27,428 bases of DNA from an uncultured Rhodospirillales bacterium (GCA_913053795.1 CAJXGZ010000001.1:1-27428); one strand, 5' to 3'; shown: positions 3,687-20,232, counted from the stretch's first letter. Program-made: numbers and translations. The notes: generated from the sequence alone by a model not told the origin.

Positions 3687-4964
3687 ATGAGGGTCTTGGT
3701 GGTTGGGTCGGGAGGACGCGAACACGCCCTGTGCTGGGCGATCGCAAAATCACCCAAGTGTAAAAAGCTCTATTGCGCACCCGGCAACGCCGGCATCGCC
3801 AAAGTCGCCGAATGCGTGGACATCGGCGCGGATGACATTGACGATTTGGTCTGCTTCGCCATCGAGAACGACATCGATTTCGTCGTCGTCGGCCCCGAGG
3901 CGCCCCTGGTCGCCGGATTGGTGGACCAATTGATGAAATCCGGCATCAAGGCCTTCGGTCCCAGCGCCCAAGCCGCCAAAATAGAAGGCTCCAAGGGCTT
4001 CATGAAAGACCTGTGCGCCAAATACAATATCCCCAGCGGATACTATGACCGCTTCGACGAGCCCGACGCCGCCAAGGAATACATCCTGCGCAAACGCGCC
4101 CCCATCGTCGTCAAGGCGGACGGCTTGGCCGCCGGCAAAGGCGTCATCCTGTGCCGCAACGAGAACGAGGCCTACGCCGCCATTGACCATATTATGGCCG
4201 AGCGCGCCTTCGGCGAAGCCGGCGACGAGGTGGTGATCGAGGAGTTCCTGAGAGGCGAGGAGGCCAGTTTCTTCGCCCTTGTCGATGGCGAACATGCGCT
4301 GCCCTTGCTTTCCGCCCAGGACCACAAGTCGGCCCACGACGGCGGGGAAGGCCCCAATACCGGCGGCATGGGCGCCTATTCGCCGGCGCCGGTGATCACC
4401 GGCAAGATGGCGAAAACCATCATGAACACCATCATCTTGCCCACCGTCGAAGCCATGGCCGCCGAGGGCGTCCCTTATAAAGGCGTGCTCTACGCCGGCC
4501 TGATGATCACCAACGACGGCCCCAAGGTTCTGGAGTTCAACGCCCGCTTCGGCGATCCCGAAACCCAGCCGCTGATCCTGCAACTGAAATCGGACCTTCT
4601 GGAGGCTTTGCTGGCCTGCGCCGAGGGTCGATTGGACAAACTAAAGCTGAAATGGCGCGATGAAGCAGCGCTAACCGTGGTCATGGCCGCCAACGGCTAC
4701 CCCGGCTATTACGAGAAGGGCGCACAAATCAAAGGCCTTGAAAAAGCCGAGGAATTGGACAACGTGGTTGTCTTCCACGCCGGAACCGTCGCCGACGGCC
4801 CCAATGTCTTCGCCAACGGCGGACGGGTGCTGGGCGTCACCGCCCTCGGCAAGACGGTGGCCGACGCTCAGAAACTTGCGTATCAAGCCGTCGATCTGAT
4901 CGACTGGCCGGAAGGATTCTGCCGCCGCGACATCGGTTGGCGCACAATAAAAAGGCGAAAATAA
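3687..4964 (+). CDS. purD: Phosphoribosylamine--glycine ligase
   Basis: [54 protein letters not shown] precedes ATG 3687. Confidence 0.98.
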
Positions 4965-4967
4965 ATA

Positions 4968-5372
4968 ATGAAAAAACTGGAATTGCCGTCTTCCCTGAAA
5001 ATGCATAACGAAACAATCGATGCCGAACATCAAAAACTCGTCGACTTTATCAACACTATCGCGAACACCTGCAACAAAGGGAAATTCGAGGACGCCGCGC
5101 GTCTGCTGGAAGACTTTTTAAGCTTCTTAAAACGGCACTTCCAACACGAGGAGGACATCCTTCGAAAGGAGAAATTTCCGCAAGTGGGTGATCACGCCGA
5201 ATATCACAAAAAACTGCTCCGTGATTCGGCCCGGCTCTTAAAACTGTTCGACGCAGCCAGCGAAAGCGATGAGGCGAATGAAAAATTCATTATAGCGTTG
5301 AGGTATTTTCTTTTGGATGACGCCCTGAAAGCCGACGTAATGTTCAAGTCATTTCTGTCGGCTCCGGAATAG
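4968..5372 (+). CDS. Hemerythrin-family protein (atypical last ligand)
   Basis: IDAEHQKL, HFQHEE, HAEYHKKL; the terminal HxxxxD motif reads DALKAD. Confidence 0.88.
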   Translation: MKKLELPSSLKMHNETIDAEHQKLVDFINTIANTCNKGKFEDAARLLEDFLSFLKRHFQHEEDILRKEKFPQVGDHAEYHKKLLRDSARLLKLFDAASESDEANEKFIIALRYFLLDDALKADVMFKSFLSAPE

Positions 5373-12978: not shown

Positions 12979-13068
12979 AACCGCGAAGGACGCACAGGCG
13001 CACGGAGGATGGCGCGCAGGAAGGAAACGAGTGACGCGGATGAACCCGTGTCATTTAAAGAAAAACAA
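12979..13068. repeat. Degenerate repeat remnants, including a collapsed copy of the 15139-15237 element
   Basis: CGCGGATGAAC (13035-13045) equals 15159-15169 and is joined directly to CCGTGTCATTTAAAGAAAAACAA (13046-13068), similar to 15218-15237. A loose CGC(G/A)(A/C) iteration lies at 12979-13008. Confidence 0.6.
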
Positions 13069-13115
13069 TTAAATTCACCTTGATTTTTGTGCATACATTC
13101 GTACATATAATATAG

Positions 13116-13151
13116 ATGGAGTTCGAATGGGATAAAGCCAAGCGCACATGA
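13116..13151 (+). pseudogene. brnT: BrnT toxin remnant (about first 10 codons only)
   Basis: MEFEWDKAKR is the characteristic BrnT N-terminus; it stops at TGA overlapping the brnA ATG. TATAAT at 13106-13111 suggests a leaderless start. Confidence 0.75.
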
Positions 13152-13366
13152 AAGACGATGAGATTGATTATTCAGACATCCCGGAGACCGACGCGCGGTT
13201 CTGGGAAGGCGCCGAACTCGTCTTGCCCGCAAACAAGGAACGGGTCACCATCCGCCTGGACCGGGACGTGGTCGATTGGTTCAAGGACCACGGCAAGGGC
13301 TACCAAACCCGCATCAACGCCGTCTTGCGCGCCTTCGTCAACGGCCGGCGAGGATCGGAGCGGTGA
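13148..13366 (+). CDS. brnA: BrnA antitoxin family (DUF4415), probably N-terminally shortened
   Basis: EIDYSDIPE, VTIRLDRDVVDWFK..GKGYQTRINAVLR. Confidence 0.9.
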   Translation: MKDDEIDYSDIPETDARFWEGAELVLPANKERVTIRLDRDVVDWFKDHGKGYQTRINAVLRAFVNGRRGSER

Positions 13367-13463
13367 TGAGGCGCAATCACTCGGAATGGCCTTTTGGCGT
13401 CAATCTTTCCTTAATGACGTTTGTTCATGATTGTGGTTTTATGGGCGCGGTGGAGGATTAATC

Positions 13464-13985
13464 ATGACGTCAGTCGCGACAATCGGCTACGAAGGAGCCT
13501 CTTTGGAGGACTTCCTTGCAGTTCTTGCATTTGCTGGCGTTACCACCCTGATTGATGTCCGCGAAGCTCCTATTTCCCGCCGCAAGGGTTTTTCAAAAAA
13601 TATTCTCCGTGAAGCGCTGGAGAATATCGGGATCGATTACATCCACCTTGTCGGCCTTGGCAATCCCAAGAACGGGCGTGACGCCGCCCGCGAGGGGCGG
13701 CTTGATGACTATATAAAAATATTCTCTGCTCAAATGACGACCTCGAAGTTCAAAGCAGACCTGGAAAGGGCCGCCGAGATTGCTAGTGAAGGTGGAGCTT
13801 GCCTTATGTGCTACGAGCGCGACCCGAACGGCTGTCATCGAAAGATTGTGTCCGAAGCATTATACGATATTATTGATGCTAATATCAGCCATCTTGGGGT
13901 CCGGAAAGGAATTTCAAAGAATGGCGGTGAAGTCAGGTCACGAACGCGTTTTAATGCTGGTGAAAGCGCTGCCCCATGCGGGTGA
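13464..13985 (+). CDS. DUF488 family protein
   Basis: ATIGYEG, LIDVREAPISRRKGFSK, Y.HLVGLG, LMCYERDPNGCHR. GGAGG precedes ATG 13464. Confidence 0.9.
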   Translation: MTSVATIGYEGASLEDFLAVLAFAGVTTLIDVREAPISRRKGFSKNILREALENIGIDYIHLVGLGNPKNGRDAAREGRLDDYIKIFSAQMTTSKFKADLERAAEIASEGGACLMCYERDPNGCHRKIVSEALYDIIDANISHLGVRKGISKNGGEVRSRTRFNAGESAAPCG

Positions 13986-14682
13986 CAAACACGGCGAAAC
14001 CGTCTGCTGCGCAGGCGTAACTCCTGAACGTAAGTGGCGCCGTCAATTTCCAGTTCCTTTCCGCTATCTTGAAGACCAGAAATTCATCCGTTGGCAATGG
14101 ATCGAATATGATTGGCGGAAGCCAACTGATGATAAACGTCCAGAGAGTCAAAGGGTTCAAGAAGGAACGATCAGACCCGGCAAAGAAATGCCAAAAAAAG
14201 AACGGGCCGAATTCCTTCATCCGTTAATTGTCAGTTCCACTCTTGAAGCGGCCAACAACGGCGCGACGTTAGCGCTCATCCGACCAAGAGATACTGTGTT
14301 CACGTTCAAGAAAAAACGCCCTGAAGCCATAAATAAGGAGAGGCATGGGTATACAGCGGCGGCAAGCCAATTGTCTTTTCTAACGCAACGACAGAAGCCT
14401 CTTGAGCCTTGCCCCTACGAGTTCAAGTTCAAGTACACTACGGATGACGGCCGTCGCCACGAAAACATTTGTGGCGATTGGGAAACAGCGGCAATGTTTT
14501 ACAGGTTTGAAAAGATTTCTGGAGAAAAAGACGCCCTAAGAAAAATGGATGAAACTTTCAACATTGAATACCCAGAAAGAGGAATGGTTTTCGCCTTAGG
14601 AGCTCACTCACGATATCCAGATTCATGGTTGCTGGTTGGAGTGATCCGTCTTGATGAAGTGGACCAGTTGTCCCTCCTGTAA
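13921..14682 (+). CDS. Uncharacterised DUF488-partner protein, 253 aa
   Basis: LVKALPHAGDKHGETVCCAGV...RQFPVPFR...RWQWIE...DKRPES...CGDWE; start overlaps the DUF488 3' end by 65 nt; AAGGA upstream. Confidence 0.8.
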   Translation: MAVKSGHERVLMLVKALPHAGDKHGETVCCAGVTPERKWRRQFPVPFRYLEDQKFIRWQWIEYDWRKPTDDKRPESQRVQEGTIRPGKEMPKKERAEFLHPLIVSSTLEAANNGATLALIRPRDTVFTFKKKRPEAINKERHGYTAAASQLSFLTQRQKPLEPCPYEFKFKYTTDDGRRHENICGDWETAAMFYRFEKISGEKDALRKMDETFNIEYPERGMVFALGAHSRYPDSWLLVGVIRLDEVDQLSLL

Positions 14683-14734: not shown

Positions 14735-15023
14735 ATGCAGATGCACAATCCGCCCCATCCTGGAGAGGCTGTTCGGGAGTTTTGTTTGGAGCCGTTGGGG
14801 CTTAGAGTCACCCGGGCGGCCAAGGGGCTGGGGGTGTCGCGCAAGGCGTTGTCGGAGCTGCTCAACGGCCATTCGGGGGTTTCGCCGGAAATGGCCATAC
14901 GCCTGTCCAAGGCCTTCGGCGGCGGGCCTTAAAAGCTGGCTGACCCAGCAGATGCATTACGACCTGTGGAAAGCCTCGATGCGCACCGATGACATTGAGG
15001 TGGTGGCGTTCGAGGCGGCTTGA
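14735..15023 (+). pseudogene. higA: HigA-family antitoxin, frameshifted
   Basis: MHNPPHPGE...[17 protein letters not shown] hits TAA at 14930-14932; the expected continuation SWLTQQMHYDLW...AA* lies in the +1 frame and ends at 15023. Confidence 0.85.
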
Positions 15024-15067
15024 GGCTCCAAATCATCCGTGATGGCCCCCGCACATAAAAGGTGAGT

Positions 15068-15132
15068 GGGGTCAGGTCTTGAATGTTGCATTTGATAAAA
15101 ATATATAAATTCAACATTCAAGACCTGACCCC
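15068..15132. repeat. Perfect 21-bp inverted repeat with 23-nt AT-rich loop (GGGGTCAGGTCTTG-type REP-like element)
   Basis: GGGGTCAGGTCTTGAATGTTG (15068-15088) and CAACATTCAAGACCTGACCCC (15112-15132). Confidence 0.92.
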
Positions 15133-15138
15133 AAACTC

Positions 15139-15222
15139 CACGGATTCACACGGATGGGCGCGGATGAACATGAAAGGCGGCTTTAATCTTTGTTCATCCG
15201 CGTTCATCCGTGTGAATCCGTG
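15139..15222. repeat. 32-bp inverted repeat (2 mismatches) built from CACGGAT/CGCGGAT iterations
   Basis: Arms 15139-15170 and 15191-15222, 20-nt loop. Confidence 0.92.
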
Positions 15223-15242
15223 TCATTAAAAAAACAACGATG

Positions 15243-15275
15243 AAAAGAGCCCGCTCCGAATCACCCGGAATGGGC
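15243..15275 (-). terminator. Possible intrinsic terminator overlapping the hemerythrin stop
   Basis: Imperfect 10-bp stem GCCCATTCCG/CGGAGCGGGC followed by UCUUUU on the minus strand. Confidence 0.35.
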
Positions 15276-15671
15276 GCTGTGAAAATCCCTATCGTAAGTG
15301 GCGAAGTGGACGCCGAACCAGCGGCTCATGGATTTCGCCAAGTCCTTTTCATAATCCTCCCATGAGTCCCCGGTGACGCTTTCCATGATGTCGCGGATTT
15401 CATCCAGCAATTTTCCATGGTCTTCCTTGTGGGCGGCGTAGCCCTTAAAGCCGATGTCGCGCATAATCTTTTCCTCAAGGGCGAAATGGGCCTCGATGAG
15501 GGCGTGAATCTCGCCGAGATATTGCTTGATTACGTCCTCGGCGCCATCGGGGGAGCAATCGGCGCCGGCCTTGCCGTGCATCTCGTTGATGAGGTTGATC
15601 AGGACTTCATGTTCATGGTCCACGGACGGGTTCCCGCATTTAAACGCGTCTTTCCAGGTCATTAACGCCAT
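15261..15671 (-). CDS. Bacteriohemerythrin (canonical ligand set)
   Basis: MTWKDAFKCGNPSVDHEH, HFALEE, HKEDH, WFGVHFATYD. Start placed at ATG 15671. Confidence 0.92.
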   Translation of the reverse strand: MALMTWKDAFKCGNPSVDHEHEVLINLINEMHGKAGADCSPDGAEDVIKQYLGEIHALIEAHFALEEKIMRDIGFKGYAAHKEDHGKLLDEIRDIMESVTGDSWEDYEKDLAKSMSRWFGVHFATYDRDFHSAHSG

Positions 15672-15912
15672 GTGTTTTTCCTTACGCCGGCTTGGATAAG
15701 AGCGGCCACGAACACTATATAGAAAGATAATGGGCAATTCGCATCAATCAAGATGGTGGCGGCTCAAAGGCCCGCCGCCGCTTAAAACGCCGAGAATGGG
15801 TTTTGGAAAGTTTTTATTAACACTATGAACTTAAAAGTAGGATGTTGAAGTTACGTGGAAAACTATCTTTTCACCGCTTTCATCAGCCAATTGGCTCGGA
15901 CAGGATGGCGCT

Positions 15913-16449
15913 ATGACAGAATTACAAGAAACTGAAATGCTGAAAAAAGAGCTCTTCGGTCTTTTCCAATACATCCAGAGGGTTCGCGAGGAAATCGTCG
16001 CCATCGAGCGCGACGCCGACGACGTCCATCAATTTGAAAGCATGTCCGACCAGTTGGACGCTATCGTCAAGGCCACCGAGGAAGCCACCGAAACCATCAT
16101 GATCGCCATGGAAGGCAACGAAGAGGCGGTGGTGGAATTAAAAAAGACCATCACCGATCCCGAACAAACAGCCCTGCTCGTCAAAATCGTTGAAAACGGG
16201 CAGAAGGTCTTTGAGGCCTGCGCCTTCCAGGACATCACCGGCCAGCGGGTCACCAAGATCGCCAAATCCGTCACCTATGTGGAAAAAAGGGTCAACGCCC
16301 TGATGGACATCTGGGGCAAGGAAGAGCTGGAGAAGGTCGAAATCAAGCCGGAAGAGAAAAAGACCGAGGACGAAAAGATGCTCCACGGTCCGCAACTGGA
16401 AAAAGAAAACTCCCTCGGCCAATCCGAAATCGACGCCCTGTTCGATTGA
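15913..16449 (+). CDS. cheZ: Protein phosphatase CheZ (alphaproteobacterial type)
   Basis: QLDAIVKATEEATETI, ACAFQDITGQRVTK (DxxxQ), LHGPQ, QSEIDALFD. Confidence 0.88.
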   Translation: MTELQETEMLKKELFGLFQYIQRVREEIVAIERDADDVHQFESMSDQLDAIVKATEEATETIMIAMEGNEEAVVELKKTITDPEQTALLVKIVENGQKVFEACAFQDITGQRVTKIAKSVTYVEKRVNALMDIWGKEELEKVEIKPEEKKTEDEKMLHGPQLEKENSLGQSEIDALFD

Positions 16450-16548
16450 TACAAAAGACCCACGCCTTATGACCTCTACACATCGGATGCGAAACCGTGT
16501 AGTATTCTCATCCGTTTTTATTCATAAACTTCAATATGGATTAAAAAA

Positions 16549-17088
16549 ATGGCGCGCCATGTCTCTTTTCTTTTCGCTCTTCTCCTCGGCGGCTTGGTCA
16601 TGACCGGCGCAGCCTTGGCGGGCGACCCGGAAAACACGCTCTTTCTGGACCTGAAAGACGGCCGCGTGGTCATCGAAATGAGGCCCGATCTGGCCCCTAA
16701 CCATGTCGCCCAGATCAAGAAGCTCGTCCGTGAAGGCTATTACGACGGGCTTAAGTTCCATCGGGTGATTGACGGCTTCATGGTCCAAGGCGGCGACAAC
16801 GGCAAAGGCGGCTCGGGCGTCAAGCTCAAGGCCGAGTTCTCCGACGAACGTCACCTGCGCGGGGTGACGTCCATGGCCAGGACGTCCGATCCCAACAGCG
16901 CCGACGCCCAATTCTTCATCATGCTGGGGGCGTCGCCTCACCTGGACGGCCAGTACACCATCTGGGGCAAGGTGGTCGAAGGCATGGAGTTCGTGGATAT
17001 GATCAAAAAGGGCTCTTCGGTGATGAACGGCATCGTCAGCAAGCCCGACAGCATCACCCGCATGCGGGTGGCCTCGGACGTTAAGTAA
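16549..17088 (+). CDS. Cyclophilin-type peptidyl-prolyl isomerase with signal peptide
   Basis: FHRVIDGFMVQGGD, SMART..PNSA..QFFI, HLDGQYTIWGKV. Confidence 0.95.
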   Translation: MARHVSFLFALLLGGLVMTGAALAGDPENTLFLDLKDGRVVIEMRPDLAPNHVAQIKKLVREGYYDGLKFHRVIDGFMVQGGDNGKGGSGVKLKAEFSDERHLRGVTSMARTSDPNSADAQFFIMLGASPHLDGQYTIWGKVVEGMEFVDMIKKGSSVMNGIVSKPDSITRMRVASDVK

Positions 17089-17145
17089 TGGACGTTAAGT
17101 AATGGGCGTTAAGTAATGGGCGTCAAGTAGTAGGCGTTAAGTAGA
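17076..17145. repeat. Tandem repeat, 5 x 14 bp (consensus GGRCGTTAAGTAAT)
   Basis: Units begin at 17076, 17090, 17104, 17118 and 17132; the array spans the stop codons of the cyclophilin gene and aspS. Confidence 0.92.
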
Positions 17146-18981
17146 CGCCTTTTCCCCTTCTTTCGATCCGTCATCCGTCTTTTTCGCCCCGGGTAATTTG
17201 GGGGGTAAATTGAGGCGGATGTGCAGCTCCTTCAGGCGCCGGGGCTCGACGGCCGACGGCGCGCCCATGAGCAGATCCTGAGCCTGCTGGTTCATGGGGA
17301 AGGCGATGACCTCGCGGATGTTGGGCTCGCCGGCCAGCAACATGACCATGCGGTCGATCCCCGGGGCCGCGCCGCCGTGGGGCGGGGCCCCGAACTTAAA
17401 GGCGGAAAGCAGGCCGCCGAACTGCTCCTCCACCTCTTTCTTGGCGTATCCGGCGATTTTAAAGGCCTTGTACATGATACTAGGGCTGTGGTTGCGGATG
17501 GCGCCGCTGGATAACTCGACGCCGTTGCAGACGATGTCGTACTGGTAGGCGAGGATGTCCAACGGGTCCATGGTCTCCAAGGCCTCCAGGCCCCCTTGCG
17601 GCATGGAGAAGGGATTGTGGCTGAACTCCACCTGGCCTGTATCCTCGTTCAGTTCGTACATGGGGTAATCGACGATCCAGCAGAAACGGAACGCGTTCTC
17701 CTCTAAAAGCCCCAACTCGGCGCACACCCTGGCCCGCGCCGCGGCGGAGAACCTTTCGGCGTCCTTCTTTTGGCCGCAAACAAAAAATACGGCGTCGCCG
17801 TCGCCGGCGCCAACGGCCTCCTTGATGGCGGCGATGCGGTCCTCTTCCAGGTTCTTGCCGATGGGCCCCTTGGCCTCGCCGCCGGCGAAAATGATGTAGC
17901 CGAGGCCGCCGGCCCCCTCGTCGCGCGCCCAATCGTTGAGCTTGTCGAAAAAGCTGCGCGGCCTTGAAGCCGCCCCCGGCGCCGGAAGGGCGCGCACGAC
18001 GGCCCCCTTTTCAACATTGCGGGCGAACAGGCCGAAGCCGGAGCCGCGAAAGGCTTCGGTGACGTCGCGCATCTGAAGCGGATTGCGCAGGTCCGGCTTG
18101 TCGTCGCCGTATTTCTCCATGGTCTCGGCGTAGGTTATGCGGGGGAACGGCGGCGCATTAACGCCGCGCGCGGCGCTGAATTCCTCGAATACGTCATGGA
18201 GGACCGGCTCTATTGCCGAGAAAACGTCCTCCTGTGTGGCGAAGGCCAACTCGAAGTCCAACTGGTAGAACTCCCCCGGAGAGCGGTCGGCGCGGGCGTC
18301 CTCGTCGCGAAAGCACGGCGCGATCTGGAAATACTTGTCGAACCCCGACACCATGAGAAGCTGCTTGAACTGCTGGGGCGCCTGGGGCAGGGCGTAGAAC
18401 TTTCCCGGATGGTTGCGGCTGGGCGTCAGATAGTCCCTGGCCCCTTCCGGCGACGAGGCGGTGAGGATCGGCGTCTGGATCTCCAGGAACCCTTGATCCG
18501 TCATGTGGCGGCGGAAGGACGAAATGACTTGCGAGCGCAACTGGATGTTGGCGTGCATGCCCTGGCGGCGCAAATCGAGAAAGCGGTGGCGAAGGCGCAT
18601 GTCGTCGGAAAACTCGGCGTCGCCGGCCACCTGCATGGGCAGCGTATCGGCCGGCGACTCGACGTGGATATGCTCCACCCGGAGCTCCACCTGGCCGGTG
18701 GGAAAGCTGGGGTTGATGGTGTCTTCCGAGCGCTTGACCACAGTGCCGGTGACGGTGAGCACGCTTTCGGGCCGCGCTTTCTCGGCGGTTTCGAACAGCG
18801 GACTGGAGACGTCGATGACGATCTGAGTCAATCCGTAATGGTCGCGCAAGTCGATGAAAAGCAGATTGCCGTGATCGCGCTTGCGGTGCAGCCAGCCGGA
18901 AAGGCGGGCCTTCCGGGAAGCGTCCTCCAGCCTCAATTGGCCGCAGGTGTGGGTGCGGTAGGGATGCATATCCTCGGTCAT
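17137..18981 (-). CDS. aspS: Aspartate--tRNA ligase
   Basis: [60 protein letters not shown]. Confidence 0.98.
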
Positions 18982-19202
18982 CGTAAGCCTTCACAAATGT
19001 TCGCGCGAATAAGGGGACGGGGGGGCGAATTTGTCAAGGTAAGCATCGAACTCTTCAGTCATGGCCGTGCTCGACACGGCCATCCACGTCTTTTTCGCCC
19101 CGCGAAAGAGAAGGCCAGCCTAGCGCACAGCTTGCCCGTCAAACACGAACCGCCTATGGTCTTTCTTATCCCTTTGATTGCGTCAACGGAGTGGAGGCAT
19201 TG

Positions 19203-19418
19203 ATGGAATGGCTGCTGATAATCGTCCTCTTTTCATCGACGGAGGATATCGACCACGCGCCGGTTCGATTCGAAACCCAACCTGAGTGCATTGCCGCGGC
19301 AGAGGCGTTTGTCAGGAAATTTCCTGCGTTTGAGTTCCGGGATCGCTCGGATAAACGAGCGGTGGAGACTCCCGTTATCCGCTCCTATGTAGAATGCATC
19401 CCGAAACCTTCCGGCTAA
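19203..19418 (+). CDS. Small hypothetical protein, 71 aa
   Basis: GGAGG ribosome-binding site; hydrophobic N-terminus and two Cys (ECIAAA...ECIP). Confidence 0.6.
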   Translation: MEWLLIIVLFSSTEDIDHAPVRFETQPECIAAAEAFVRKFPAFEFRDRSDKRAVETPVIRSYVECIPKPSG

Positions 19419-19455
19419 TTCATGGGGACATTCGACTTTATGATTAATCGGGACA

Positions 19456-19671
19456 CTATTTCCCGTCAGTAATCAAGAGTTCGTGGGGTTCCACGTTGAG
19501 GGCTTTTGCGATTTTGCTCAGCACGAGGGCGGAAGGGTTGCGCACCCCGCGCTCGATGCCGCTGATGTAGGTGCGGTGCATGCCGCACTCGAAGGCGAGC
19601 TGCTCCTGGGACAACTTTCTTTGGAGCCGGATGGCCTTCAGATTTCGGCCCACTTGCTTGCGGATATCCAT
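19456..19671 (-). CDS. XRE-family HTH regulator resembling restriction-modification controller (C) proteins
   Basis: VGRNLKAIRLQRKLSQEQLA...HRTYISGIERGVRNPS; the HRTY recognition helix is typical of C proteins. Confidence 0.9.
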   Translation of the reverse strand: MDIRKQVGRNLKAIRLQRKLSQEQLAFECGMHRTYISGIERGVRNPSALVLSKIAKALNVEPHELLITDGK

Positions 19672-19694
19672 GCCCGCAAGAACGCCACGGCGAA

Positions 19695-19720
19695 CATTAT
19701 TGGTCTACAGACTATGAGTC
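19695..19720 (-). promoter_or_regulatory. C-box-like operator
   Basis: Minus strand GACTCATAGTC-TGTA-GACCAATAATG: a perfect GACT-N3-AGTC box, a 4-nt spacer and a degenerate second box, ending 23 nt before the regulator ATG. Confidence 0.7.
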
Positions 19721-19767
19721 TCATTTTTGTTTACGAATAGCGCCCGCAACGCTAACCTCACACCCCC

Positions 19768-20232
19768 ATGAAGCCCAAACCGTCACCATCAAGAAACCAC
19801 ACGCTATTATTAAAAGCCGCCCTTTGCCTCGCCCTAACCGCATCGACGGCGACGGCGGCCAAAGCCCCGCCCATCCTAGGCCCCTACACCGCCCGCGTCA
19901 TCTCCATCCAAGACGGCGACACCCTAACCGTGGACGTCCCCCTATGGCCCGGCCTAACAATGCGCACAAAAGTCCGCCTAGCCGGAATAGACGCCCCTGA
20001 ACTAAAAGCCGCCTGTAAGAAAGAGCGCACTCTGGCAATCCAAGCCCGCACCCACCTAACCACCCTAGCCACCCCCCAAGTCCGACTCACCGACGTACGG
20101 CTAGGCAAATACGCGGGCCGCGTCGTGGCGCGGGTGCTAACCATGACCGGCGAGGATGTATCGGCAGTGATGCTGAGCAAGGGACTAGCGCGGGCCTATG
20201 ACGGAGGGAAGCGTGAAGGATGGTGTGATTAA
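19768..20232 (+). CDS. Thermonuclease (SNase-like) family protein with N-terminal signal-like region
   Basis: VISIQDGDTL, VRLAGIDAPE, KYAGRVVA, MLSKGLA. Confidence 0.9.
   Translation: MKPKPSPSRNHTLLLKAALCLALTASTATAAKAPPILGPYTARVISIQDGDTLTVDVPLWPGLTMRTKVRLAGIDAPELKAACKKERTLAIQARTHLTTLATPQVRLTDVRLGKYAGRVVARVLTMTGEDVSAVMLSKGLARAYDGGKREGWCD

What the first reader, a model, noticed from the sequence alone, without database searches (positions are those of the whole stretch)
13464..14682. DUF488 + uncharacterised partner: candidate two-gene nucleic-acid repair or anti-phage module
Seen: two overlapping, lower-GC genes between TA remnants. DUF488 keeps its D-V-R..SR and C-x-E-x4-CHR motifs; the partner has a K-A-x-P...ETVCCAG start plus aromatic and basic motifs. 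From recollection of the family literature (needs checking): DUF488 proteins are proposed Cys-dependent phosphoesterases and occur beside DarTG-type systems and dual-OB-fold proteins. Inference: the partner is a nucleic-acid-binding, perhaps OB-fold, subunit that targets DUF488 to damaged or modified DNA/RNA. I know of no demonstrated function for this pair.
Basis: partly seen in the sequence, partly recalled or inferred. Interest (0 to 1): 0.65.

Follow-up and report, generated by a model that had tools for sequence, protein, structure and literature searches.

The report
Catalogued DUF488 plus dual-OB gene pair
Two overlapping genes, a phosphatase-like DUF488 enzyme and a protein with two single-strand-DNA-binding (OB) folds, form a real, strictly linked, horizontally mobile pair, but it is already listed as the untested anti-phage candidate PDC-M19, so this is one more copy of a known unknown.

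Summary
The window has an intact DUF488 gene (13464-13985) and an intact partner gene (13921-14682). They overlap by 65 nt in a low-GC stretch between a brnT/brnA remnant and a frameshifted higA.

The partner has no Pfam family.

The link to DUF488 is very strong:
- DUF488 lies directly upstream in 78 of 79 assessable genomes.
- The pair persists at about 25% identity, in another orientation, on conjugative plasmids and in the lysogeny module of Gordonia phages.
- Natural in-frame fusions of the two proteins exist.

The pair is patchy among relatives (4 of 41 genomes) and sits beside recombinases, transposases, toxin-antitoxin, restriction-modification and Kiwa genes.

It is not undescribed. 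Both proteins match PADLOC candidate PDC-M19 (A and B), proposed by Payne et al. 2024 through guilt-by-embedding and never tested. This scan reached the same verdict on at least eight other genomes.

Function remains inferred: a single-strand nucleic-acid binder coupled to a Cys-dependent phosphoesterase-like enzyme, probably acting in conflicts between mobile elements and phages. This copy differs in having a DUF488 without the N-terminal extension and a subfamily-specific Cys/His set.

The parts
13464..13985 (+). DUF488 gene (173 aa). It is a stand-alone DUF488 domain with a variable C-terminal tail, and matches PADLOC PDC-M19A.
   Evidence: Pfam PF04343 E 1.6e-29 and PF22751 at 27.8 bits. 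PADLOC PDC-M19A E 5.8e-33, covering only positions 150-288 of the 294-position profile. D31, R33, S38, R39, C116, E118, C124, H125 and R126 are at least 95% conserved in 78 linked copies. The fold of the equivalent domain in a natural fusion resembles Cys-phosphatases, Z 8.1-8.3.
13921..14682 (+). Partner gene (253 aa): a tandem (dual) OB-fold protein that matches PADLOC PDC-M19B.
   Evidence: No Pfam hit even at E 10. PADLOC PDC-M19B E 4.1e-35 over its full length. AF2 model pLDDT 82. The N-terminal OB resembles SSB, PriB and RPA; the C-terminal OB resembles RPA70 DBD-C, Teb1 OB-C, RMI1 and Stn1. It matches AFDB and Atlas clusters named Dual OB-containing domain.
13921..13985 (+). 65-nt overlap of the two reading frames. 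The partner is in the +1 frame relative to DUF488, which suggests coupled translation.
   Evidence: ORF coordinates, sequence, and conserved N-terminus of homologues. Comparable overlaps occur in related loci.
13452..13456 (+). GGAGG ribosome-binding site, 7 nt before the DUF488 start codon.
   Evidence: Read from the sequence.
13116..13366 (+). Upstream flank: brnT remnant (11 codons, 13116-13151) and intact brnA antitoxin (13148-13366). Not conserved next to the pair elsewhere, so not part of the module.
   Evidence: BrnA_antitoxin PF14384 E 1e-18, sequence, and no conserved neighbour family across 80 loci.
14735..15023 (+). Downstream flank: an orphan, frameshifted higA. Its frame changes near 14927-14930. 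Not part of the module.
   Evidence: TIGR02607 HigA E 1.5e-21, covering positions 1-61 of 81. The C-terminal part reads on in another frame.

Best explanation
This is a copy of the two-gene cassette that PADLOC lists as phage-defence candidate PDC-M19. It is carried here in a small, horizontally acquired, low-GC islet.

Shown:
- The two genes are obligately linked.
- They are sometimes fused into one polypeptide.
- They move between chromosomes, conjugative plasmids and temperate phages.

Inferred mechanism:
- The 253-aa partner uses its two OB folds to bind single-stranded nucleic acid or a nucleic-acid end, such as phage or plasmid replication or transfer intermediates.
- It forms a complex with the DUF488 protein.
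- DUF488 is a phosphatase-fold enzyme with an invariant C-x-E-x5-C-H-R strand-loop-helix motif.
- DUF488 then removes or transfers a phosphate-containing group (a terminal phosphate, or a sugar-phosphate or NAD-derived adduct) on the bound nucleic acid.

The most likely biological role is in conflict between mobile elements, namely defence of the host or lysogen against incoming phage. It is unlikely to be housekeeping repair.
For: Identity:
- PADLOC PDC-M19A matches at E 5.8e-33 and PDC-M19B at E 4.1e-35.
- PDC-M19 is cassette CAS_00089 in Table S8 of Payne et al., bioRxiv 10.1101/2024.01.29.577857.

Linkage:
- DUF488 lies directly upstream of the partner in 78 of 80 genome loci. One exception is cut by a contig end. 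The other is rearranged next to an IS fragment and a resolvase.
- The pair persists at 22-29% partner identity. It is convergent on pRL8, pYS1, and Streptomyces and Pseudomonas plasmids and in 7 Gordonia phages, and co-directional in Calothrix.
- Natural in-frame fusions exist: P0176 (409 aa) and L007:5500-6729 (410 aa).

Folds:
- The partner has two OB domains.
- The top solved matches for the fusion model are tandem-OB ssDNA-end binders: CTC1 at E 5e-6, TEBP-alpha and Teb1.
- The fusion model has pLDDT 93 and pTM 0.73.
- The DUF488 domain resembles laforin, PRL, KAP and Sulfolobus PTP at Z 8.1-8.3.
- The catalytic-looking residues are invariant.

Mobility and conflict context:
- The pair was found in 4 of 41 related genomes and lies in low-GC DNA.
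- 26 plasmid records carry the partner, half of them conjugative.
- In the phages the partner gene (gp43) lies directly downstream of the immunity repressor gene (gp44), with the convergent DUF488 gene (gp42) next and the integrase gene (gp39) about 1.2 kb away.
- Neighbours include serine recombinases (10 loci), ParB-methylase fusions (5), type III R-M (4), DUF4238 (4), Kiwa, type I HsdR, ArdC, KAP NTPase, HicAB, HigBA and transposases.
Against: - No experiment on PDC-M19 or on any DUF488-DuOB pair was found. Every functional step is inference.
- Some copies sit among purely metabolic genes (L104).
- In this window no known defence system lies within five genes.
- Fold matches of the DUF488 domain to Cys-phosphatases are middling. 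Z is about 8, equalled by tetrapyrrole-methylase Rossmann-like domains at Z 9-9.6. The motif is not the canonical C-x5-R.
- The residues conserved across the whole partner family include several acidic ones (E26, D71, E75, D186, E188). This is unusual for a plain ssDNA binder.
- Nucleic-acid binding has not been shown.
Confidence: 0.55

Rival explanations
1. Anti-defence or DNA-entry protection module of mobile elements. The dual-OB protein coats incoming single-stranded plasmid DNA or phage DNA, and DUF488 removes a host-inflicted modification or damaging end group. The pair would then help the mobile element establish itself rather than defend the host.
For: - Half of the 26 plasmid records carrying it are conjugative.
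- In L091 it sits with ArdC, ParB and a Toprim protein. On pRL8 it sits with a Toprim/DUF3991 protein and a very large DEAD-box helicase. ParB-N6/N4 methylase fusions recur in 5 loci.
- From my own knowledge, such genes are typical of plasmid leading regions.
Against: - In the Gordonia phages the pair lies in the lysogeny module, with the partner gene directly downstream of the repressor gene. Such a position points to expression in the lysogen rather than at entry.
- Many chromosomal copies, including this one, are not on a recognisable conjugative element.
- Leading-region position was not tested.
Confidence: 0.2
2. Accessory nucleic-acid repair or end-healing enzyme pair with no role in conflict. 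The OB protein recognises damaged single-stranded DNA or RNA, and DUF488 cleans a blocked terminus.
For: - Tandem-OB folds resembling SSB, RPA, RecO and telomere-end binders.
- A phosphatase-like fold.
- Some copies lie among ordinary metabolic genes or near RecJ, RadC and ImuB-like fragments.
Against: - Very patchy distribution: 4 of 41 relatives, and 1 of 14 in the same family.
- Atypical GC.
- Presence on plasmids and phages and next to recombinases and transposases.
- A core repair function would be expected to be vertically inherited.
Confidence: 0.15
3. Toxin-antitoxin-like addiction pair, in which one protein is toxic and the other neutralises it, stabilising the islet or element that carries it.
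For: - Compact, overlapping two-gene operon.
- It sits among toxin-antitoxin genes here (brnA, higA) and elsewhere (HicAB, HigBA).
- Notes from this scan report antitoxin-type AbrB/wHTH domains fused to DUF488 in archaeal copies. I did not check this.
Against: - This copy has no DNA-binding antitoxin-type domain. It is 173 aa and matches only positions 150-288 of the 294-position PDC-M19A profile.
- Gene orientation is not conserved. Convergent pairs are common in the distant branch.
- Stable natural fusions of the two proteins exist.
- Both proteins are larger and far more conserved than typical type II pairs.
Confidence: 0.1

Closest known systems
PADLOC-DB v2 phage-defence candidate PDC-M19 (genes A and B); Payne, Hughes, Fineran and Jackson, bioRxiv 10.1101/2024.01.29.577857
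   Same: Both proteins match the PDC-M19 profiles (A at E 5.8e-33; B at E 4.1e-35 over its full length) and the genes are adjacent. It has the same two-gene composition, DUF488 plus a dual-OB protein.
   Different: - The DUF488 protein matches only positions 150-288 of the 294-position main A profile, so it lacks that profile's N-terminal ~150 positions.
- The partner is from a mainly alphaproteobacterial subfamily. That subfamily scores lower on the main B profile than plasmid, phage and cyanobacterial copies, which reach E 1e-48 to 1e-74.
- Here the pair is not embedded in a BREX, DISARM or R-M system.
- PDC-M19 itself is untested.
PADLOC candidate PDC-M45 (three genes, two of them DUF488-like)
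   Same: The window's DUF488 also matches PDC-M45B (E 1.3e-21) and PDC-M45C (E 3.6e-15). Two related loci (L003, L006) carry a second DUF488 gene upstream of the pair. The L003 copy matches M45B.
   Different: Only one DUF488 gene is present here and in the whole assembly. The best matches are to PDC-M19.
Pfam DuOB (PF22557), the dual OB-containing domain
   Same: - The same two-OB architecture by predicted structure. AFDB clusters named Dual OB-containing domain match at E 1.7e-7. An Atlas cluster that is 100% DuOB matches at TM 0.71.
- Distant homologues of the partner hit DuOB at E 0.002.
   Different: The window's protein gives no DuOB match even at E 10. Membership rests on fold and on weak transitive sequence links.
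Tandem-OB ssDNA and end binders (SSB, PriB, RPA70, CTC1, TEBP-alpha, Teb1, POT1)
   Same: Fold of both domains, with Z up to 9.7 for the first OB and 5-7 for the second. CTC1 matches at Foldseek E 5e-6.
   Different: There is no sequence similarity (6-12% identity). The family-wide conserved residues include an acidic set (E26, D71, E75, D186, E188) not typical of these binders. There is no evidence of telomere or replication roles.
Cys-based PTP / dual-specificity phosphatases of the rhodanese-phosphatase superfamily. The placement of DUF488 there is my recollection of Burroughs and Aravind 2023, NAR Genom Bioinform lqad029, which I could not read here.
   Same: - A Rossmann-like fold with invariant Cys and Arg at a strand-loop-helix.
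- VIA Z 8.1-8.3 to laforin, PRL, KAP and Sulfolobus PTP.
- E. coli YeaO (DUF488) matches at TM 0.69 by hit.
   Different: The motif is C-x-E-x5-C-H-R, not C-x5-R. The Z values are middling and equalled by unrelated Rossmann-like domains. No enzymatic activity is known.

Membership tests
PADLOC PDC-M19 | A protein matching a PDC-M19A profile | tested here: met
   E 5.8e-33 to PDLC04505 and E 5.8e-21 to PDLC04504. Only the DUF488 part of each profile is matched.
PADLOC PDC-M19 | A protein matching a PDC-M19B profile | tested here: met
   E 4.1e-35 to PDLC04508, residues 8-252 against profile positions 4-268 of 269.
PADLOC PDC-M19 | The two genes adjacent in one cassette | tested here: met
   The genes overlap by 65 nt. 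Adjacency holds in 78 of 80 related loci.
PADLOC PDC-M19 | Protection against phage (the function implied by the name) | not testable with these tools
   No paper in the held library mentions PDC-M19 in its text. The source preprint lists it only as an untested candidate.
Pfam DUF488 (PF04343) | Score above the gathering cut-off and conserved D-x-R, S-R and C-x-E...C-H-R residues | tested here: met
   103.4 bits against a cut-off of 22.2. The residues are invariant in 78 linked copies.
Pfam DUF488-N3a (PF22751) | Score above the gathering cut-off | tested here: met
   27.8 bits against a cut-off of 27. This is marginal, and only the C-terminal half is matched.
Pfam DuOB (PF22557) | Sequence match to the family profile | tested here: not met
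   No hit at E up to 10 for the window's protein. Distant homologues reach only 18.6-18.7 bits against a cut-off of 27.
Pfam DuOB (PF22557) | Two tandem OB folds in one domain | tested here: met
   AF2 models. Structural matches to DuOB-annotated clusters and to solved OB proteins for each half.
Type II toxin-antitoxin pair | Small co-directional pair with a DNA-binding, autoregulating antitoxin | tested here: not met
   No HTH, RHH or AbrB domain in either protein here. Orientation is not conserved across the family. Toxicity was not tested.
Cys-dependent PTP/DSP phosphatases | C-x5-R P-loop signature | tested here: not met
   The motif reads C116-x-E-x5-C124-H-R126. Fold similarity is only middling, Z about 8.
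   No DarT or DarG family appeared in the about 15 annotated neighbourhoods read. No targeted search was made.

The most novel reading that the evidence does not exclude
The dual-OB partner may not be a passive ssDNA clamp. The residues conserved in every branch of the family, including phage and archaeal-plasmid copies, are a charged set on and near the canonical ligand face of the first OB and at the start of a helix in the second: E26, R41, R48, D71, R73, E75, S76, R95 and D186-W187-E188. This would fit a second catalytic or specific ligand-recognition site. The pair, or its natural fusion, would then be a two-active-site machine that recognises and chemically processes a particular modified or phosphorylated nucleic-acid end or NAD-derived adduct. 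That biochemistry has not been described for any defence or anti-defence system.
Probability: 0.15. Interest if true: 0.7.

Novelty: new member of a known kind. Interest (0 to 1): 0.3.

Why it matters
DUF488 is a very widespread domain, present in 7 of 14 control genomes including E. coli YeaO, and it has no known activity. The obligate pairing with a tandem-OB protein, and the natural fusions, are the best available handle on its substrate. They point to single-stranded nucleic acid.

If PDC-M19 were shown to block phage, or to protect incoming plasmid DNA, it would add a new enzymatic principle to bacterial immunity: a Cys-phosphatase-fold enzyme guided by an SSB-like subunit.

This window's copy adds little beyond another example. 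It is, however, a compact version with a stand-alone 173-aa DUF488, which makes it convenient for biochemistry.

Tried and rejected
- Pfam and NCBIfam on the partner gave nothing, even at E 10.
- Sequence searches of the PDB with DUF488 and with the partner profile gave nothing useful.
- Full-text search for 'PDC-M19' found 0 papers. Of the 33 papers that mention 'DUF488', the 30 listed gave no functional study by title or abstract (I read the DUF488 passages of only one). 'DuOB/dual OB' returned only irrelevant hits.
- The Burroughs and Aravind 2023 paper on the rhodanese-phosphatase superfamily could not be opened by DOI or PMC id. Its content is cited from memory only.
- Zinc-site idea for the partner: the Cys/His set (C30, C164, H180, C184, H229) is not conserved outside this subfamily. 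I rejected it as a family-defining feature. It may still bind metal in this subfamily.
- Conserved third gene: clustering neighbours of 80 loci found no family in more than 10 loci. brnA and higA are therefore not part of the module.
- Island-bounding repeat: the 67-nt palindrome at 15067-15133 is dispersed on many contigs of the same genome. It is a REP/MITE-like element, not a specific island end.
- My ORF-based neighbour calling was crude: longest ORF first, and it sometimes swallowed DUF488. Neighbourhood statements therefore rest mainly on annotated records and on the collection's own gene calls.

Full report
**What is in the window**

The + strand carries two intact, overlapping ORFs.

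The first runs 13464-13985 (173 aa). A GGAGG lies 7 nt before its ATG. It is a DUF488 protein: PF04343 at E 1.6e-29, and just above the cut-off for the DUF488-N3a subclade model.

The second ORF is open from 13780. Its real start is most likely ATG 13921 (253 aa, stop at 14682). The residues encoded between 13921 and the next ATG at 13954 (SGHERVL) align with the conserved N-termini of homologues. An AAGGA lies 10 nt upstream. The genes therefore overlap by 65 nt in different frames.

GC is 0.49-0.52 across them, against 0.61-0.70 in mutL and pgi upstream and about 0.6-0.64 in aspS downstream.

Upstream lies a brnT stump of 11 codons fused to an intact brnA. Downstream lies a higA with no higB, and that higA is itself frameshifted. 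The one small error is that the DUF488 motif reads C-x-E-x5-CHR rather than x4.

**Identity of the pair**

The partner has no Pfam or NCBIfam match, even at E 10. Both proteins do match PADLOC-DB v2 models. DUF488 matches PDC-M19A at E 5.8e-33, and the partner matches PDC-M19B at E 4.1e-35 over its full length.

PDCs are the 145 'phage defence candidates' that Payne et al. derived by 'guilt-by-embedding' in BREX, DISARM and type I R-M loci. They added the PDCs to PADLOC without testing them (bioRxiv 10.1101/2024.01.29.577857). PDC-M19 is cassette CAS_00089, made of two protein families, in their Table S8. No paper in the held library mentions PDC-M19 in its text. Among the 30 listed of the 33 papers mentioning DUF488, no title or abstract pointed to a functional study.

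After I had reached this result, the scan's own index showed at least eight earlier follow-ups on other genomes with the same verdict.

**Linkage**

The partner family is large:
- 699 proteins in the 90%-clustered collection, all unnamed or 'hypothetical'.
- 2036 representatives at 50% identity.
- At least 340 places in the species-representative genome collection, found with two patterns specific to this subfamily.

In 78 of the 80 fetched loci a DUF488 gene lies immediately upstream on the same strand. One exception is cut by the contig end. The other (L019) has an IS fragment upstream, a resolvase downstream and a truncated partner.

The link survives deep divergence and rearrangement, at 22-29% partner identity:
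- The two genes are convergent, with abutting or overlapping 3' ends, on Rhizobium pRL8, Burkholderia pYS1, and Streptomyces and Pseudomonas plasmids.
- They are also convergent in seven Gordonia temperate phages. There gp43 is the partner, directly downstream of the immunity repressor gene gp44, with the integrase gene gp39 nearby, and gp42 is DUF488 at E 1.2e-29.
- They are co-directional on a Calothrix plasmid.

Two natural in-frame fusions of DUF488 to the complete partner exist: P0176 at 409 aa and L007:5500-6729 at 410 aa. Together these are strong comparative evidence that the two proteins act together, probably as a complex.

**Folds**

An AF2 model of the partner has pLDDT 82 and pTM 0.79. 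An AF2 model of the L007 fusion has pLDDT 93 and pTM 0.73. Both show two OB barrels.

- An all-against-all structural comparison aligns the first barrel with PriB, SSB, RPA and TEBP OB domains, with Z up to 9.7.
- The second barrel aligns with RPA70 DBD-C, Teb1 OB-C, RMI1 and Stn1, with Z 5-7.
- Foldseek's best solved hits for the fusion are tandem-OB ssDNA-end binders: CTC1 at E 5e-6, TEBP-alpha and Teb1.
- AlphaFold-DB clusters and ESM-Atlas clusters annotated 'Dual OB-containing domain' (Pfam DuOB, PF22557) match at E 1.7e-7 and TM 0.71. DuOB also occurs fused to DEAD-box helicases.
- The phage and Sulfolobus-plasmid homologues hit the DuOB profile weakly, at E 0.002.

The DUF488 domain of the fusion model aligns with Cys-dependent phosphatases (laforin, PRL, KAP, Sulfolobus PTP; Z 8.1-8.3). 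It aligns equally well with tetrapyrrole-methylase Rossmann-like domains. It also aligns with E. coli YeaO. This agrees with my recollection that Burroughs and Aravind (2023) placed DUF488 in the rhodanese-phosphatase superfamily. I could not open that paper.

In 78 partner-linked DUF488 proteins, D31, R33, S38, R39, C116, E118, C124, H125 and R126 are at least 95% conserved.

**Conserved residues of the partner**

Within the close subfamily, many aromatic and basic residues and a Cys/His set are invariant. Across 90 diverse full-length family members, the Cys/His set is largely lost. What remains everywhere, including in phage and archaeal-plasmid copies, is K15, P18, E26, R41, P44, R48, D71, R73, E75, S76, R95 and D186-W187-E188.

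This charged and partly acidic set is not what a plain ssDNA clamp needs, and it is unexplained. It could be the DUF488 interface, a metal site or a second active site. I could not map it in 3D because model coordinates are not exposed.

**Context**

The pair is patchy. It was found in 4 of 41 related genomes and 1 of 14 in the same family. The assembly has a single DUF488 gene.

No neighbour is conserved. The most recurrent neighbour families in 80 loci are:
- serine recombinases (10 loci)
- ParB-N6/N4 methylase fusions (5)
- type III R-M mod plus res (4)
- DUF4238 (4)

.

Annotated metagenome neighbourhoods show HicAB; a DDE transposase, RadC and Kiwa; type I HsdR, a transposase, ArdC, ParB and Toprim; HigBA, SNase and IS1595; an IS200-type transposase; and a KAP NTPase. 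One neighbourhood is purely metabolic. Twenty-six plasmid records carry the partner, and 13 of them are conjugative.

This fits a self-contained, horizontally moving cassette that lodges in variable or defence-rich DNA. It is not a formal enrichment test.

In this window there is no known defence system within five genes, only decayed toxin-antitoxin loci. The 67-nt palindrome just downstream (15067-15133) is a dispersed REP/MITE-like repeat of this genome, not an island end.

**Mechanism and rivals**

Shown: obligate pairing, occasional fusion, mobility, tandem-OB and phosphatase-like folds, and invariant Cys/Arg residues.

Inferred: the OB protein binds single-stranded nucleic acid or an end and presents it to DUF488, or is regulated by it. 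DUF488 then acts on a phosphate-bearing group.

- I rate a conflict role as most likely. Defence of the host or lysogen is favoured by the phage lysogeny-module position and by the embedding in R-M systems that led to PDC-M19.
- An anti-defence or DNA-entry role for plasmids is the main rival, given ArdC, ParB-methylase and Toprim neighbours on conjugative elements.
- Housekeeping repair fits the distribution poorly.
- A toxin-antitoxin reading fits poorly with the unconserved orientation and the stable fusions.

**Verdict**

Its value is as a compact representative for experiments, not as a discovery.

Noticed in passing
window 14735-15023: The orphan higA is itself broken. The frame ends at 14932, but the typical HigA C-terminal part (SWLTQQMHYDLWKA...) continues in another frame at 14928-15020. 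This implies a single-base frameshift near 14927-14930.
   Followed up: partly
window 13116-13151: brnT is reduced to 11 codons (MEFEWDKAKRT), ending in an ATGA overlap with an intact brnA. It looks like a clean internal deletion of the toxin that kept the antitoxin and the coupling signal.
   Followed up: partly
window 15067-15133 (also 15139-15222): A 67-nt near-perfect palindrome has at least 15 similar copies on other contigs of the same assembly (C24, C252, C166, C85, C310, C111, C204, C32 and others), so it is a REP/MITE-like dispersed repeat. A second hairpin follows it. A 33-nt piece (15213-15245) is 82% identical to 13041-13073 on the other side of the four-gene islet.
   Followed up: partly
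L102 4838-8267 versus window 14735-20232: The closest homologous locus (partner 71% identical) has an intact higB-higA directly upstream of the pair and an SNase-family gene downstream. The window has a higA remnant beside the pair and an SNase gene at 19768-20232. These may be remains of one larger shared island.
   Followed up: no
L094 (Gordonia phage Eviarto) 3018-5265: In seven Nymphadora-type temperate phages the dual-OB gene (gp43) directly follows the gene annotated as immunity repressor (gp44, 316 aa, weak HTH_31 match). It converges on a DUF488 gene (gp42), next to the integrase. This is a position typical of lysogen-expressed genes.
   Followed up: partly
L003 4921-5349 and L006 4915-5304: Two related loci carry a second DUF488 gene upstream of the DUF488-dual-OB pair. 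The L003 copy matches PADLOC PDC-M45B at E 3.9e-48. This links the two-gene PDC-M19 and three-gene PDC-M45 candidates.
   Followed up: partly
L096 (Sulfolobus islandicus pSOG2) 3995-5355: On archaeal conjugative plasmids the dual-OB homologue is followed by an overlapping 168-aa gene with no Pfam or PADLOC match. It may be a very divergent DUF488 or a replacement partner.
   Followed up: no
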